In this document: one piece after another, positions 3,001 through 9,000 of the stretch | Numbering within the stretch: position 1 is the stretch's first letter | Layout of the letters: each line of letters begins with the position of its first letter | From: a virus | Taxonomy: Duplodnaviria; Heunggongvirae; Uroviricota; Caudoviricetes | IMG/VR virus record: IMGVR_UViG_2684622582_000011 | Location: 1 to 22,155 of that record | Direction: 5' to 3' (one strand) | Length of the DNA stretch: 22,155 bases | Position numbers: made by a program

Positions 3001-6000
3001 GTTATAAAATTTCGCTGGTTCGTTACATCAGAAGTACATCCTGCCAGGAGTAAAGCAAAAACTACAATAATTGTTCTCATCATCGTGCTCCTCTTCCAGG
3101 AATAAAGCCAACCGGGAAGTGATCAGAGGCAACCTGTCCCCTTAATAATCCGAATAACAATGAAGCCCTCAACAGTGGGAGCACGAAGCTCACTGAATTT
3201 CCAACAACTGCATAATCAAGAACACCACCGCTGGCTTGTGTAGGGTCTGGCGGGGCAATAATATTTACGTGATTACGTATACCAGGCTCAAGAGTTGAAA
3301 ACAACATGGCAGGAGAACGGTTAAAATCGCCTGCAATCATCCAGTTAGCAGCCTGTCTTATCGGATCCGTTTGTCTGTTGAAAAATTCAAAAACACTGTT
3401 AACAATTGCTCCAGAGTCTACCCCCCGGTTTGCCAGTGCATGGGTTGAAAAGAAAACGTCATTACCAATTCTTATTCCAATAATCGGGCGCGATACAACC
3501 GTTGGAGGAGATAATACAATTACCTCATCGGCTCTTCTGTTAGATACTATCGCCAGATTTACTCGGTTAGCAAAAGCATCAACACGAGAAAAATAAATGA
3601 ACAATTGTTGTGGGCGACTATTTGTTCCTGTATTCCAGATATACTCATTCATTGGGATGCCAGGCGTGCTAAATTCACGCTCAGTCAGTGTAGCCGAAGA
3701 TGGTACCGAACCAGCCTCCTGGACCATCAGAATATCGACAGCACCGTTCCCCGTAACAAGTTGTCGTACATGCGTATTCCACTTATTTTCTGTAGAGGCA
3801 CTTGACCCCTGTAAATTCCAGGTTGCAACTTTAAAATCACTTAGATCGGCAAAAGAAACCGCCGGTATCAGCATTAGCCAAAATAATAACTTATTCATAT
3901 CCTCTCCATTCTCCCGGTTTATCATGAGATGGGATTGGCAACGGCTTGAATGGCCTTAACTCAGGTTTTATCAGGTTCGGTTTCGCAGCCCTTACAGGTG
4001 GACTAATTGCCCATAGCATTTCTTGTGTTTCCTCCTTAGCTCCGGGGCATTTCTCAAGAGTAATTGTAAAAGCAAATGGTGACAGTATCGTTCTGCTTAA
4101 ATAATCTGCTCTGATACATGTCTGCAGTGCACTGCTTCTTATTAGTACGTTACCATTTGTAGATGGCAGCAACTGAAACTCCTGAGATAGAGAATTATCA
4201 TCACAGGTATTATGTATAACTCCGTTTTTAAATGCCTCCATACAAGTACCCTGGGCAACATTAACAAATTTCACTGTTCCGGCATCTTTACCATCCATAA
4301 CCTTCCAGTTCCGGTTTTCGCCAAAACTTACTGAATCAAAAGGAGTGTATCCCCAAAGCCAGTTACGAACAGGCCTTGCCCAGACAGTAATCAGTGCACC
4401 TCCGGTACTCATTATTGAAACTTCAGGAAAGCCAGAACTACCACCTCCTGCTGTTGAAGACACAGCTCCAGAACCTACTGCAACACCTTGTCCTGGAATT
4501 CCTACTAATTCCACATTCTTTCCGGGCGGAGAAGGTGAATCCCCTATTCCATTTGAACAACCAGTTATTATAAGAGTACACAAGAAAGCTATTGTTTTTT
4601 TATTCATATTATCCCCTCCTCCATATACCCTTTTTATAAGCAAACAGAAACCACAAATCAAGAATACATTACCAATAATGCCAATAGAAAAGATAAAGAA
4701 CATATAATTAAGCACCCCATTATAACGTAAGTTACTGTTTAGCAAGTTGCAAAACAGTAACGCATACTGAAGTCTTTTGCATACCGTAGCTTTATTAAGC
4801 CCCCTGAAATAAATTAGCCATACTCTTTTTTAATCAGTCTATTCTTATAATAATGCTGTGAAACAGTAAACAGAAAACATATGACGAAACTTCCTTAAAT
4901 ATAATAAGAAATCTGGAAAGAACTTTTGTGACAAGTCAGGATATACCAGCTACATCATTTTCGCACATGCTGATGTATTTTTTATAATATGTTTGTACTA
5001 TCTTATTCCATATATAGGATATCAGCCATATTCGAAAACCATGAAAAAATAATGCAACAGGACAAATGCTATCCTCCACCCTATTGTCAGAACTTGCTTA
5101 AAGCAGGCATGTATGTAATACTATATGTTAAAATAATATTATTTATATAATATCACTGTTTATCCCGTATTTATATGCGGGATTTTTTTATTTGTTTGTT
5201 TTATACAAAAAAACATAATTTATTACAATATATAATTAATTTATTTAGTTTGCATTATTTAAATATTTATCTAACATACATCTGAGGCTGTGTGCAGTTT
5301 CTTTTTACTTCTTTGTTGCCGAAAACCTTACACTACCAGTTTTTCATCAGAACATGCCTGTTTACCCGGCTACGCTGAAAAACAATATTATTTAATATTT
5401 TTATGTAAAAACAACATTGAAGAGTCAGAGTGAATAGATGTACTATTATATAGCCTATAACAATAAAATCTCCACAACTGTGCTGCAGGTCAACAGCACA
5501 AATCTTCATGCAACATTCCCGTATCACAAGAGGCAGTGTGATACGGGATTTTTTGGTGATTCAGTAGTTGCAAAACAAAATGATAAAGACATATACTTAT
5601 GCTCATCCGTGATAATTTACGTATTCTGACACTAAGTAACGTGCCCGCATCACCACTTGGATGCGGGATTTTTTTATCCATTGCTATATTCGGGGATGTT
5701 GTAGTAAGATCACCTTACTTCTTGAAGTGCATATATATTTCTTCACATTTGTTTTCCTTAATATCCCCGTAACTTGTTGAGCTACGGGATTTTTTTTGCT
5801 CTTTATATTTTACTTTTAACAAAATTACATAATTAACGAATTGAAAAACCAATAAAGCACATTGATAATGAAGTGGCTAAGATATGGTAGCCAGAATTTG
5901 TAATCCTTCCTTTAGAATTCCCACATATCATCACTGTGCTTTTTTTTATTTTTCGACTCTGTCCTGCATTATGCCTGGCTGGCCTGTAACTCCCCCGCCC

Positions 6001-9000
6001 GAACAGTCTGACCGCACAGTGCATCAGCATCCTGCGCCAGCGGGCCCCCCCAGCACACACATCGCGTCGAGAAAAATTTTATCCGCTTCGCGCTTTGTCC
6101 TGAGCGCGTTGTCGTACAGCCAGTCGTGAATAATCGCCGCCCTGGCATAACGTCCGTGCGGCGGGAATACGGACCAGAGAATGCGCAGTACGCTGTGACG
6201 TTAAAAATTGGCATTGCATTTACTGTAACAATTTTGTAAAAATATAGCGTCCATAGTAAGACTTGATATTAATTAGAGGCAGCCTTTCTCACCCGTGCTC
6301 TTCTGTGGGCACGGGCTTTTTTATTGAATTTCAAATAATAAACATTTTTGTGTAAACATATTGATTATGCAAAAAGAACAGCAGTAATATTTTCGGATTA
6401 TAATAATTTATCTCATGTCTGTGCTGCAGTTCAGCAGCACAAATCCTCATACAATTTTCCCGTATCACTACTCCTGTTGTGATACGGGATTTTTTACATT
6501 AAAAATATCTATTTTAAGTAAAATATATAAATAAAGGATTGCTGTCATTTAAAAACCAGGAAAAAATACCTACGCTGGTAGCAACAACTGGCAGATTACT
6601 ACATAGTTTTAGTTTCGGGTTTTCCCGCACAGCTCACGAGTGCGGGATTTTTTTTATTTCTCAGCTCTGTCCTGCATTATGTCTGTCTGACCTGTAATTC
6701 CCCCGCCCGAACAGTCTGACCGCACAGTACATCAGCATCCTGCGCCAGCGGGAAACTCCCAGCACACACATCGCGTCGAGAAAAATTTTATCCGCTTCGC
6801 GCTTTGTCCTGAGCGCGTTGTCGTACAGCCAGTCGTGAATAATCGCCGCTTTGGCATAACGTCCGTGCGGCGGGAATACAGACCAGAGAATGCGCGGTAC
6901 GCTGGCAAGGTCTGTGACATACCCCGCCGGAACCTCAATCACATCTGCGGGGTTATCCGTCAGCCAAAACTCAAACGGTTCAACCAGCCGCCAGCGATAA
7001 TCGTCGAGCATTTCCAGTACGGCCGGAGTGGTGAATTTACTCATTGCCCCATCCCACGATATAACGGCGAATGGCGTCGGCGCTGTCCAGCTCTGCCACT
7101 TCCTCTTTCATCTGCCGCTGGCGTTCGTGTATCTGAAAACCACGGATGACCATTGCCTGAAGCATGGCCGCGTCAAGCTGTACCAGTTCTTCCGGCGTGA
7201 GGGTGACATCCTGGTTATCTGCATCCGTCCAGAAAAAGCCCGCCGGAAGGGCACCGGCCTGTGCCACAGCAACAACCGGTGCCAGACGACTTCGTGAAAT
7301 TTTTCCGCCATCCCAGCGGTGGCCATTCCATTCAAAAATAATACCGGCGTTTTCCTGCTCATCACGCCACTGACTGATTTCAGCGTGTTTATTCTGACGT
7401 ATTTCGTCAAGCTGCTCCGGTGTCATCACGAACGGCGCGATGTCTCCGGCAAGTCCATCCTGCAGCGCCTGCCAGACTGCCTTACCCGTTTCTGCGATAT
7501 CCGTGGCAGTCGCTGTATAGGGGATATATTCCGTTTCTCCCTCAAACAGCACTTCACAGTCAATACCGCCATCACTCAGACGGCGTGCGTTTTTTATTTC
7601 AAATTTTTTAATATTCATCTGTTATGCCACGCGTATAAATAAGCTGATAGCAGCTTTTGGGGTTTTTCCTGTTTTAGTGAAGCTCTGGGCGCTTCTGCTG
7701 CCTGATAAGGGTTTATATGTGCCGGGCAAAGACCTTGAATCAATAGCCACAATTGCATTACCTGCACTCTTGTTATCCAGGCATATATCAACAGTCCTCA
7801 GTAGTGACCCCTGACAAGGACGCCCGCGTATAGTTGTCACGGGGGACGCTGACGTTTCCGGAAAGGGACCGATATATACAGCCAGAATCAGGCTCCCCGG
7901 GGCCGGACTTTCCACTCCACCTCCCGCCAGTATTTCCATCAATTGTCCGGCGGTCACACTCCCCTGTCCTCCGCCCAAATGCTCCTGCATCGCTTCTTTT
8001 GTCGTCATCGCCAGAAGCGTTCGCGCGGCTTCAGAAATATTCGTCAGCGATAACTGCCGTTTACTGTCAAAGTACGGCAGGGTGTCTGGTGTGCCAGCCA
8101 GTTGACTGAACGCCGTCAGTTGTCCATTCAGCGGTTGTTTACCTGCCAGCGCATTCAGCATGGTTGTCGCAAACTTCGGGTCGTTACCCAGCGCTGCCGC
8201 CAGTTCGTTCAGTGTATCCAGTGCCGCAGGTGCCGATGCCACCATTGCCGCAATGGCTGCCTTCACAAAAGCCGTGGTGGCAATCTGTGTATTGTTGACA
8301 GACTGTTCCGCAGTCGGTGCGGTTGGCGTTCCTGTTAATGCCGGGCTGTTTAATGGCGCTTTCCGGCCCGTTTCATCCATGACCGCCTTAACTGCCCTCG
8401 GTGTCGCGGCAAGGGTTTCAGACACGCTGTTGGTGGCACTGCTGAGCTGGGTGATCCCCCTTGCTGTCAATGAAGCTGCTGGCACACCGGCGACCTGATT
8501 CCATGCATGCGTATGAACGGACGGGGCCTTTCCGTTCGCCAGATCATACGCTGCCCTGACAGCTTTCGGCGTTGCAGCTTCTGTTTCACTGTCACTATCT
8601 GTAGCACTACTTAACTGAACAACACCCTTTTGAGTCGTGGTGGCATCCTGCGCAGTATATTTCTGCCCCGCTATTTCAATGGCTTTTTTAACTGCTTTTG
8701 AGGTTGCCGCTTCCGTTTCACTGTCGCTGTCCGTGGCGCTGCTCAGCCGGACAATCCCCTTTTTCTCCAGACTGGCATCTTCCAGATTAAAGGCTCCGGC
8801 AATTTCTTCTGCCCGTCCGGCTGCCGTTTCCGCCCGCTGTGTCAGCGTCTGTGTTGCTTCACGGTCTTTCGCGGCGTTCCCCGCGCTGGCGGCAGCCTTC
8901 TCTGCGTTCGTCGTGGTTGTGTCAGCCGCTTTTTCTGCACGCTCTGCCGCACCGGTGGCCGTTGTCATTTTCTGGTTTATCTGCGAAACAGAGTCCGCCA

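What the first reader, a model, noticed from the sequence alone, without database searches (positions are those of the whole stretch)
5456..6485. Two paralogous candidate small RNA genes in the non-coding region between the tail module and cdtABC
Units at about 5470-5554 and 6412-6485 share the same two-hairpin architecture on the plus strand. Each has a 5' stem-loop (GTGCTG...CAGCAC), a short CA-rich linker (ACAGCACAAATCYTCATRCAA), then a terminator hairpin with the identical 10-bp stem CCCGTATCAC / GTGATACGGG and a T-tract. Both stems are conserved between copies while both loops differ completely (CAGGTCAA versus AGTTCA; AAGAGGCAG versus TACTCCTGT). That pattern is what selection on RNA structure rather than on a protein would leave. 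Each unit is preceded by a -10-like hexamer (TATAAC at 5456-5461, TATAAT at 6399-6404) within a conserved TATAAYAATWAWWTCTC block, and neither contains a meaningful ORF. Prophage-encoded Hfq-dependent regulatory sRNAs are known from pathogenic E. coli, so a pair of RNAs beside a toxin operon is plausible; whether the CA-rich linker acts as a seed or decoy is speculation.
Basis: partly seen in the sequence, partly recalled or inferred. Interest (0 to 1): 0.7.

Follow-up and report, generated by a model that had tools for sequence, protein, structure and literature searches.

The report
Paired candidate prophage small-RNA genes
Two related ~100-base units beside a prophage toxin operon each have a conserved promoter, two hairpins and a terminator, so they are probably genes for an undescribed, rare regulatory small RNA, though nobody has yet shown that they are transcribed.

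Summary
Window 5478-5554 and 6419-6495 are 82% identical, and both fold on the plus strand into a single-stranded 5' region, a short hairpin, a 16-nt linker and a 12-bp terminator with U6.

About ten distinct copies exist. They occur in only 10 of 5,426 complete E. coli genomes, a few draft assemblies and one gut metagenome contig. All lie at lambdoid prophage ends, between a DinI-like gene (here replaced by cdtABC) and the tail-fibre module.

Comparing copies moves the promoter. That box therefore falls inside a ~100-nt RNA, at its conserved 5' end.

- The terminator stem has two compensatory pairs.
- The 5' hairpin stem is invariant, so it shows no covariation.
- There is no Rfam match (so not AgvB, AsxR, Esr41 or STnc100), no homologue in the Pas-sRNA strain E2348/69, and no conserved ORF.

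Best reading: a new family of autonomous, probably Hfq-type prophage sRNA genes, sitting in a plus-strand array of terminator-ended mini-units. Expression and targets are untested. One lead is that copy 2's 5' end is complementary to the cdtB-stop/cdtC-start junction.

The parts
5417..5446 (+). Predicted sigma-70 promoter of unit 1: -35 TTGAAG (5417-5422), 18-nt spacer, -10 TACTAT (5441-5446)
   Evidence: In the 8 distinct copies that cover it (9 aligned), TTGA and T-A-n-n-n-T do not vary and the spacing is fixed at 18 nt, while the spacer sequence is only 55% identical. It falls below the consensus scan threshold (8 of 12 matches), so one search did not list it.
5453..5555 (+). Unit 1 predicted RNA (~100 nt): 5' single strand 5453-5478 (contains the TATAAC box), hairpin 5479-5485/5494-5500, linker 5501-5516, terminator 5517-5528/5537-5548, U-tract 5549-5554
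   Evidence: MFE and centroid structures are identical, -30 kcal/mol, z = -4.6. CM score 112 bits. The start position is inferred from the -10 and has not been mapped.
6361..6390 (+). Predicted promoter of unit 2: -35 TTGATT (6361-6366), 18-nt spacer, -10 TAATAT (6385-6390)
   Evidence: Same alignment columns as the unit 1 promoter.
6396..6495 (+). Unit 2 predicted RNA (~100 nt): 5' single strand 6396-6419 (contains the TATAAT box), hairpin 6420-6427/6434-6441, linker 6442-6457, terminator 6458-6468/6479-6489, U-tract 6490-6495
   Evidence: -34.5 kcal/mol, z = -7.3. CM score 108 bits. Over 6385-6500 it is 100% identical in E. coli E7-1N7, and its CM score (108.4 bits) is the same in L001 and in six draft contigs L016-L021.
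5568..5675 (+). Neighbouring unit B, a different family: -35 TTGCAA 5568-5573, -10 TATACT 5592-5597, terminator 5644-5667 plus T-tract. Context only, not a member of the family.
   Evidence: The promoter was found by the scan. Promoter and terminator are conserved in 5 loci directly downstream of the family member. The fold has z = -3.6.
5940..6195 (-). Duplicated fragment of the 3' part of the DUF1353 gene (copy of 6648-6904), which separates the two stacked cassettes that carry unit 1 and unit 2
   Evidence: Direct repeats D1 and D2, 92-97% identical. RefSeq annotates it as a partial DUF1353 pseudogene in E7-1N7.
3060..3084 (-). Candidate (unproven) target site of unit 2: the cdtB stop / cdtC start overlap and the first 8 cdtC codons
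   Evidence: 22-bp interrupted duplex with u2 6396-6419, -18.4 kcal/mol; the best non-self site in the whole window on both strands. 5 of 600 shuffles reach this energy on any of 19 start regions, and 1 of 600 on a cdt start. Other family members give -8.6 to -14.1.

Best explanation
Each unit is an autonomous small transcription unit, in effect an 'RNA moron', at the tail-fibre-distal end of a lambdoid prophage.

**Proposed mechanism.** A sigma-70 promoter (-35 TTGAnn, 18 nt, -10 TAnnnT) drives a non-coding plus-strand RNA of about 100 nt that ends at a strong intrinsic terminator. The RNA has the anatomy of an enterobacterial Hfq-type trans-acting sRNA:
- a ~25-nt single-stranded A/C-rich 5' region that carries the conserved YUAUAAYAAU box;
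- a short hairpin;
- a conserved 16-nt single-stranded linker (AAAUCYUCAURCA), followed by a U-rich stretch directly before the terminator hairpin;
- a 3' U6-8 tail.

It most likely acts by base-pairing, through the 5' region and/or the linker, with mRNAs or other sRNAs of the host or prophage.

**Origin of the two copies.** They are diverged alleles (82% identical), not a local tandem duplication. Recombination stacked two prophage-end cassettes. Their 5' single-stranded regions differ most, so they may have different target sets.

**Shown versus inferred.** Shown: the repeat, the fold, the conservation profile, terminator covariation, absence of coding potential, and independence from neighbouring genes. 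Inferred: transcription, the start site, chaperone binding, and the base-pairing function.
For: - **Fold.** Both copies give the same two-hairpin fold with z = -4.6 and -7.3. The consensus fold over 8 copies has 18 pairs with 97% of cells paired.
- **Covariation.** The terminator helix has 2 pairs with changes on both sides (C-G<->U-A and C-G<->A-U) plus G-U variants. 2 of 500 shuffles reach the observed covariation score, and the slid controls show no pair with changes on both sides and lower scores (0.00-0.08 against 0.151).
- **Conservation by region, 8-9 copies.** -35 hexamer 82%, spacer 55%, -10 hexamer 78%, -10 to start 42%, stems 84-94%, loops 55-65%, T-tract 100%, downstream 32%. The invariant positions are exactly TTGA and T-A-n-n-n-T, with fixed 18-nt spacing.
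- **Modularity.** E7-1N7 is 98.6% identical to the window from 5563 onwards but only about 70% identical before 5555, so a recombination breakpoint sits at the end of the unit 1 terminator.
- **Independence from genes.** No annotated same-strand gene lies within about 400 nt upstream in the fetched loci that are annotated or have gene calls.
- **No coding potential.** There is no conserved ORF, and 1-nt indels occur.
- **Retention.** The unit is retained in a decayed prophage remnant at the same chromosomal site in the two genomes fetched; three more genomes hold an equally similar copy.
- **Hfq-module features.** A U-rich run before the terminator and a U6-8 tail are visible in all copies. 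The module is as defined by Ishikawa et al. 2012 and Otaka et al. 2011, cited in PMC4104026.
Against: - There are no expression data of any kind, and none of the strains that carry the units is a studied model.
- The 5' hairpin stem never varies, so it gives no covariation support. It could equally be conserved as a DNA palindrome.
- The promoter hexamers match the consensus at only 4 of 6 positions each, and the consensus scan did not list them.
- The family is shallow: about 10 distinct copies at 75-90% identity, probably all from Escherichia prophages. The shuffle control used for covariation can overstate significance for related sequences.
- No target has been identified with confidence.
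Confidence: 0.55

Rival explanations
1. One reading: shorter sRNAs of 75-85 nt that start a few bases after a TATAAC/TATAAT -10 (5456-5461 and 6399-6404), so that the CA-rich linker is the only seed.
For: ATAA within the box is invariant in all 10 copies. TATAAT in unit 2 is a perfect -10. The RNA downstream of it folds identically.
Against: No -35-like hexamer lies 16-18 nt upstream in any copy, and there is no TG extension. Eight of the ten aligned copies read TATAAC, which lacks the conserved final T of a -10. An upstream TTGA-18-TAnnnT pair with invariant key positions explains the extended conservation better.
Confidence: 0.15
2. There is no functional RNA. The hairpins are insulating intrinsic terminators, or leftovers of decayed morons. 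They stop transcription that enters from the prophage end (the DinI/host side, or divergent from cdt) before it can run antisense into the tail-fibre operon. The rest is conserved only because the copies are young.
For: Seven or more plus-strand terminators lie within 1.5 kb, all facing the 3' end of the tail operon. The last one abuts the DUF1353 stop codon. The family is shallow and rare. One neighbouring unit (D, about 5841-5947) is visibly degenerate in the window.
Against: The conservation is patterned, not uniform. The spacer, loops and flanks have diverged to 32-55% while promoter key positions, stems and linker are held at 76-94%. An insulator needs neither its own conserved promoter nor a conserved 5' hairpin and linker.
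Confidence: 0.2
3. The invariant palindrome GTGCTG-N8-CAGCAC acts at the DNA level as a binding site (operator) for a dimeric phage or host protein. The adjacent terminator is incidental.
For: The half-sites are invariant and the spacing is constant at 8 nt, with a variable spacer sequence, in all 10 copies and with no covariation. That is the signature of a protein-binding palindrome.
Against: - No candidate binding protein is encoded nearby.
- The motif is not a LexA box; CTGT and ACAG are 11 nt apart, not 8 (read from the sequence).
- It always sits inside a promoter-to-terminator unit and is followed by a conserved single-stranded linker.
- The pattern is absent from the representative genomes and IMG/VR apart from chance hits.
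Confidence: 0.07
4. Unit 2 is specifically a regulator of the neighbouring toxin operon. Its 5' end pairs across the cdtB-stop/cdtC-start overlap and blocks coupled translation of CdtC or triggers cleavage.
For: An interrupted 22-bp duplex of -18.4 kcal/mol is the best non-self site in the whole window. 1 of 600 shuffles reaches this energy on a cdt start region. Only unit 2 of the family pairs this well.
Against: - An unchanged unit 2 (100% identical in E7-1N7; same CM score in the five draft contigs) sits where no cdt gene is called in the 4-8 kb of flank fetched.
- The duplex is AU-rich, with 4 G-U pairs and two internal loops.
- Four segments were tested, so the corrected p is about 0.01-0.03.
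- The pairing needs the very first nucleotides of an unmapped 5' end.
Confidence: 0.1

Closest known systems
AgvB / AsxR anti-sRNAs of EHEC lambdoid prophages (Rfam RF02702, RF02703; Tree et al. 2014, PMC4104026)
   Same: Prophage-encoded and intergenic, at a 'moron' insertion site. Multiple diverged paralogues per genome share a conserved 3' terminator part and a variable 5' part. Each has a terminator plus U-tail, and they lie convergent with neighbouring phage genes.
   Different: AgvB and AsxR are 51-60 nt, lie downstream of PR' (the Q/stx region) and have mapped 5' ends and proven Hfq binding. The units here are about 100 nt, carry an extra 5' hairpin and lie at the tail-fibre/DinI end. 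There is no covariance-model match even at E <= 10. The GcvB-target motif CACAACA is not conserved: CACAAC occurs in 2 copies only.
Pas sRNAs (PasA-D) of EPEC E2348/69 (bioRxiv 10.64898/2026.05.13.724894)
   Same: Intergenic sRNA genes in lambdoid prophages that end in an intrinsic terminator with poly-U. Sequence variants and multiple copies arise by repeated acquisition and recombination.
   Different: Pas genes are widespread: 4,600 BLAST hits in 1,362 genomes, and they are also present in phage RefSeq records. PasA, PasC and PasD neighbour Q, holin/lysozyme and esterase genes. The family here occurs in 10 of 5,426 complete E. coli genomes and in none of 50,697 phage records. E2348/69 is in the searched collection but gives no hit.
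Phage 'morons' (Juhala et al. 2000, as cited in PMC4104026): autonomous promoter-gene-terminator insertions between phage genes
   Same: Each unit has its own promoter and a factor-independent terminator. It is inserted between conserved phage modules, is present or absent between otherwise similar prophage ends, and has recombination breakpoints at its borders.
   Different: Classical morons carry a protein gene. These carry only a short structured RNA.

Membership tests
AgvB (RF02702), AsxR (RF02703), Esr41 (RF02676), STnc100 (RF02076) and all other Rfam 15 families | Match to the family covariance model at or near the gathering score | tested here: not met
   There were no matches at gathering thresholds in the whole window. 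At E <= 10 on 5000-7200 only terminator-shaped chance matches to unrelated families appeared, all far below their gathering scores.
Pas sRNAs (PasA, PasB, PasC, PasD) | BLAST-detectable similarity to the E2348/69 genes, which is how the family was delimited in the preprint | tested here: not met
   E2348/69 (NC_011601.1) is in the searched collection. It is not among the 10 genomes hit by either unit in distant-mode blastn. The Pas sequences themselves were not available for a direct alignment.
Hfq-dependent trans-acting sRNA (enterobacterial type) | Rho-independent terminator hairpin followed by a 3' poly-U tail of at least 6 nt | tested here: met
   The terminator has 11-12 bp. T6 is present in both window copies and T6-8 in the others. 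The T-tract is 100% conserved.
Hfq-dependent trans-acting sRNA (enterobacterial type) | U-rich single-stranded stretch immediately 5' of the terminator hairpin | tested here: met
   AUU (u1), UUUU (u2) and a consensus nUUU directly precede CCCG. In EC476/L011 the corresponding positions read UCC.
Hfq-dependent trans-acting sRNA (enterobacterial type) | Own promoter and a discrete primary transcript | tested here: inconclusive
   A conserved TTGA-18-TAnnnT motif is present in the 8 distinct copies that cover it (9 aligned). No transcript data exist, and each hexamer matches the consensus at only 4 of 6 positions.
Hfq-dependent trans-acting sRNA (enterobacterial type) | Physical binding to Hfq and Hfq-dependent stability | not testable with these tools
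   This needs co-immunoprecipitation, CLIP or RIL-seq, or a northern blot in an hfq mutant.
Hfq-dependent trans-acting sRNA (enterobacterial type) | Conserved single-stranded seed with complementary targets | tested here: inconclusive
   Two single-stranded segments are conserved: the 5' box and the linker, at 72-76% identity with invariant cores. The only target lead is u2 with the cdtC start. No host genome was available for genome-wide prediction.
Structured RNA supported by covariation | Compensatory base changes that maintain the helices | tested here: inconclusive
   Terminator helix: 2 of 11 pairs have changes on both sides and 2 have G-U variants. 5' hairpin: 6 of 7 pairs never vary and none covaries. 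There are only 8-10 shallow sequences.
Protein-coding gene or type I toxin | Conserved open reading frame | tested here: not met
   ORFs overlapping the units (5438-5629 +, 5333-5527 -, 6348-6482 +, 6331-6468 -) are not conserved. The copies differ by 1-nt and 2-nt indels, and the linker ATG is absent from most copies.

The most novel reading that the evidence does not exclude
The prophage end carries an 'sRNA island'. It would be a tandem, recombining array of six to eight autonomous plus-strand mini-genes, each with its own promoter and terminator, and the two paralogues are its best-conserved members. At least one of them (unit 2) would directly regulate the adjacent cytolethal distending toxin operon by pairing its 5' end across the cdtB-stop/cdtC-start junction. 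Toxin subunit stoichiometry would then depend on a prophage-encoded riboregulator.
Probability: 0.1. Interest if true: 0.6.

Novelty: new member of a known kind. Interest (0 to 1): 0.4.

Why it matters
Prophage-encoded sRNAs such as AgvB, AsxR, Esr41, StxS and the Pas RNAs tie horizontally acquired virulence genes into host regulation. All characterised examples come from a few model EHEC and EPEC strains, and most lie at the Q/PR' moron site.

If expressed, these units would add a family at the other moron site, the tail-fibre/att end, directly beside a genotoxin operon. They would also show that such RNA genes are exchanged as promoter-to-terminator cassettes.

The practical gain is modest. 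The report provides precise, testable coordinates, a corrected promoter and 5' end, and one concrete target hypothesis (cdtC).

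Tried and rejected
- **Rfam.** Searched at gathering thresholds and at E <= 10; nothing relevant was found.
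- **AgvB-like GcvB decoy.** The CACAACA-type motif is incomplete (CACAAC) and present in only 2 of 8 copies, so I dropped the idea.
- **Pas sRNAs.** Rejected on distribution and on the absence of any hit in E2348/69.
- **Literature search with exact sequence strings.** No papers matched. A search for CDT, small RNA, prophage and Hfq returned nothing that looked relevant by title or abstract.
- **Wider homologue hunts.**
  - An exact IUPAC pattern found nothing in one genome per species and nothing in IMG/VR. In metagenomes it found 1 true hit and 4 chance hits.
  - Looser patterns in IMG/VR gave 15 loci, all of them chance hits by the covariance model.
  - A DUF1353-anchored search of representative genomes returned only distant Bacteroidota and archaeal loci.
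  - 35 further DUF1353 prophage ends from E. coli, Citrobacter and metagenomes contain no copy.
  - Phage and plasmid collections gave no match.
- **Loop inversion.** I tested whether the unit 1 terminator loop is an inverted copy of the unit 2 loop, which would explain 'completely different loops' by a single event. The reverse-complement alignment is better than the direct one, but about 5% of shuffles do as well, so this is only suggestive.
- **LexA box over the 5' hairpin.** The spacing is wrong (11 nt, not 8).
- **DinI start region as a cognate target in related loci.** No clean duplex was found.
- **First whole-window duplex scan with shuffles.** It timed out and was replaced by restricted scans.

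Full report
**1. What is in the sequence**

The window carries cdtC, cdtB and cdtA on the minus strand (2508-4745). A lambdoid tail module lies on the same strand: DUF1353 at 6661-7044, DUF4376 at 7037-7618, tail fibre at 7622-9841 and J at 9902-13354. The 1.9 kb between them (4746-6660) has no conserved ORF. It is packed with plus-strand intrinsic terminators: 9 terminator-like sites (7 of them on the plus strand) against 1.4 expected from shuffles.

Within this stretch, 5478-5554 and 6419-6495 align without gaps at 82% identity. Folded as RNA, each gives one dominant structure, with MFE equal to centroid:
- about 25 unpaired nucleotides;
- a 7-8-bp hairpin (GTGCTG.../...CAGCAC);
- a 16-nt unpaired linker;
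- a 12-bp G+C-rich hairpin, then U6.

The z-scores are -4.6 and -7.3. The second unit ends at 6495, not 6485. The 5' hairpin loops differ by only two substitutions rather than completely. The conserved block reaches further upstream than noted.

**2. Relatives and where they sit**

Distant-mode BLAST finds the units in only 10 of 5,426 complete E. coli genomes, with up to four places per genome. They are absent from 50,697 phage records and from 72,556 plasmids.

Exact-pattern scans found no copy in one genome per species or in IMG/VR, and one human-gut metagenome contig. Contigs that encode the identical DUF1353 protein added four more loci. One of them (GCA_001268365.1) has the same cdt arrangement as the window. 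35 other prophage ends with related DUF1353 genes have no copy.

A covariance model built from 8 copies scores true members at 81-119 bits and everything else at 30 bits or less. The window holds exactly two members.

The position recurs: the plus-strand unit lies between the prophage boundary and the 3' end of the minus-strand tail module where that is present (L001, L003, L005, L015-L021); in L002 and L004 the surroundings are IS-rich and no tail module is annotated next to it. A DinI-like gene lies upstream on the same strand in L004, L005, L016, L018 and L019. In the window cdtABC occupies the place of DinI. In the loci that have one, the DinI-like gene ends 400-450 nt away, and in three of them a separate terminator-like hairpin lies in between. 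The units are therefore not 3' UTRs.

**3.

Aligning the copies with their upstream flanks shows an invariant TTGA, then 18 nt of poorly conserved sequence with no indels, then an invariant T-A-n-n-n-T.
- In unit 1 these are TTGAAG (5417-5422) and TACTAT (5441-5446).
- In unit 2 they are TTGATT (6361-6366) and TAATAT (6385-6390).

Conservation by region over 8-9 copies:

| Region | Mean pairwise identity |
|---|---|
| -35 hexamer | 82% |
| Spacer | 55% |
| -10 hexamer | 78% |
| -10 to start | 42% |
| 5' single strand | 72% |
| Hairpin arms | 94% |
| Hairpin loop | 65% |
| Linker | 76% |
| Terminator arms | 84-89% |
| Terminator loop | 55% |
| T-tract | 100% |
| Downstream | 32% |

This is the profile expected of a promoter plus a structured, terminated RNA. 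It places the start near 5453 and 6396. The TATAAY box (5456-5461 and 6399-6404) then lies inside the RNA, in its conserved single-stranded 5' end. There it is a candidate seed or Hfq-contact segment rather than a -10. It has no -35 partner in any copy. The start sites are inferred, not mapped.

**4. Evidence for structure**

On 8 copies, 18 consensus pairs are formed in 97% of cells. The terminator helix has two pairs with changes on both sides (C-G<->U-A in 3 copies, C-G<->A-U in 2), plus G-U variants. Two of 500 shuffles reach the observed covariation score, and partner-slid controls show no pair with changes on both sides and lower scores.

The 5' hairpin stem is invariant in all 10 copies while its loop varies. 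That fits a constrained RNA stem. It fits equally well a DNA palindrome with fixed 8-nt spacing, and the present data cannot separate the two.

The terminator loops fall into two types: purine-rich AGAGGCAG in unit 1 and one relative, and pyrimidine-rich CTCCTGT in the rest. They align better in reverse complement than directly, which hints at a single loop-inversion event. About 5% of shuffles do as well, so I treat this as a remark only.

No ORF is conserved. The copies differ by 1- and 2-nt indels, and the linker ATG exists in only three copies.

**5. How the two copies arose**

Window 5940-6195 is a 92-97% identical copy of 6648-6904, the 3' part of DUF1353. RefSeq annotates the equivalent stretch in E7-1N7 as a partial pseudogene. 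The island is therefore two prophage-end cassettes stacked head to tail:
- distal cassette: unit 1, B, C, D, then the DUF1353 fragment;
- proximal cassette: E, unit 2, F, then the intact DUF1353.

E7-1N7 is 98.6% identical to the window from 5563 onwards, but only about 70% identical before 5555. A recombination breakpoint therefore coincides with the end of the unit 1 terminator.

The units behave as exchangeable promoter-to-terminator modules, which is the definition of a phage moron but with an RNA cargo. Unit 1's closest relative (90% identical) sits in a decayed prophage remnant at the same chromosomal site in the two genomes fetched; three further genomes hold an equally similar copy whose context was not fetched.

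**6. What it most likely does**

The anatomy is that of an enterobacterial Hfq-type base-pairing sRNA: its own promoter, single-stranded conserved segments, a U-rich run directly before a G+C-rich terminator hairpin, and a 3' U6-8 tail. I commit to that reading with a probability of about 0.55. Transcription, chaperone binding and targets are all inferred.

The two paralogues differ most in the 5' single-stranded region, so they may have diverged in target range.

I could not run genome-wide target prediction because no host genome was available. Within the window, the best non-self partner of unit 2's 5' region, on either strand, is the cdtB-stop/cdtC-start overlap (3084-3060). The duplex has 22 interrupted base pairs and -18.4 kcal/mol. 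In shuffles, 5 of 600 reach this energy on any of 19 start regions, and 1 of 600 on a cdt start. Other family members reach only -8.6 to -14.1.

Against this lead, an unchanged unit 2 occurs in loci where no cdt gene is called in the fetched flank, the duplex is AU-rich, and four segments were tested. I keep it as a lead with a probability of about 0.1.

**7. Comparison with known systems**

Rfam 15 gives no match at gathering thresholds and nothing relevant at E <= 10. That excludes AgvB, AsxR, Esr41 and STnc100, the families the Pas preprint finds around prophage sRNAs.

The Pas sRNAs themselves were delimited by BLAST from E2348/69. That genome is in the searched collection and gives no hit. 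Their distribution (1,362 genomes) and, for PasA, PasC and PasD, their neighbourhood of Q, lysis and esterase genes also differ.

AgvB and AsxR are the closest in concept, being paralogous prophage sRNAs with a conserved 3' part and a variable 5' part at a moron site. They are 51-60 nt and lie downstream of PR'. No paper in the library contains the sequence strings.

I therefore file this as a new candidate family of a known kind, not as a member of any described family.

**8. Verdict**

A specialist would not be surprised by another prophage sRNA, the family is rare, and nothing is experimentally anchored. On the other side, the comparative evidence is cleaner than for most in-silico sRNA calls, the units sit in an unusual tandem array next to a genotoxin operon, and there is one concrete, cheaply testable target hypothesis. 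Interest: 0.4.

Noticed in passing
window 4960-6660 (+): The two units are part of a tandem array of at least six or seven plus-strand units that each end in a terminator. Besides u1 and u2 these are G (promoter 4960-4988, terminator 5162-5190), B (5568-5675), C (about 5681-5798), D (promoter 5841-5869, terminator degenerate near 5921-5947), E (terminator 6292-6323) and F (terminator 6619-6657, abutting the DUF1353 stop). Unit B's promoter and terminator are conserved in 5 loci, always directly downstream of a family member.
   Followed up: partly
window 5940-6195 vs 6648-6904: This is a 92-97% identical direct duplication of the 3' part of the DUF1353 gene plus its downstream junction. The distal copy is a gene fragment. 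It shows that the non-coding island is two prophage-end cassettes stacked by recombination.
   Followed up: yes
window 5555-5563; L001 8001: E. coli E7-1N7 is 98.6% identical to the window from 5563 to 7100 but only about 70% identical upstream of 5555. There it carries a different allele of the unit, with tRNA-Ser and the hya operon in place of cdt. A mosaic breakpoint therefore lies exactly at the end of the unit 1 terminator.
   Followed up: yes
window 3060-3084 (-) and 6396-6419 (+): The predicted 5' end of unit 2 is complementary to the cdtB-stop/cdtC-start overlap (ATGA) and the first 8 cdtC codons. The duplex energy is -18.4 kcal/mol, the best non-self duplex in the window. The shuffle p is about 0.01 before correction for four tests.
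   Followed up: partly
window 5528-5537 vs 6469-6478: The terminator loops come in two types across the family: purine-rich AGAGGCAG and pyrimidine-rich CTCCTGT. They are partly reverse-complementary. This could reflect a hairpin-loop inversion or potential loop-loop pairing between paralogues. It is not statistically convincing (about 5% of shuffles do as well).
   Followed up: partly
window 2508-4745 (-): The cdtABC operon is only about 91% identical to the CDT-IV/CDT-I operons of APEC O1 and other complete E. coli genomes. The similarity stops inside the 5' end of cdtA (about 4661-4678), so the cdtA start and its upstream region differ here.
   Followed up: no
L003 5663-9700 and L015 (E. 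coli MIN10, TB06051): The closest relative of unit 1 (90% identical) survives in a heavily decayed prophage remnant, with truncated J, truncated tail assembly gene and IS3 fragments. The remnant lies at the same chromosomal site, between a C4-dicarboxylate transporter gene and ompC, in the two genomes fetched (MIN10, TB06051); three more genomes (3908, PK-F-10132, GPEC548) hold an equally similar copy whose context was not fetched.
   Followed up: partly
L016 about 6533-6592 (related locus, minus strand): The DinI-like gene upstream of the unit in related prophage ends is preceded by a canonical LexA box (CTGTATACAAACACAG). That end of the prophage is therefore probably SOS-responsive. No LexA box precedes the units themselves.
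   Followed up: no
L009, L010, L012, L013 (metagenome contigs): Four contigs from one unrelated organism match the 25-nt IUPAC pattern exactly, but share nothing else with the family. This shows that the invariant hairpin motif alone is not diagnostic.
   Followed up: yes
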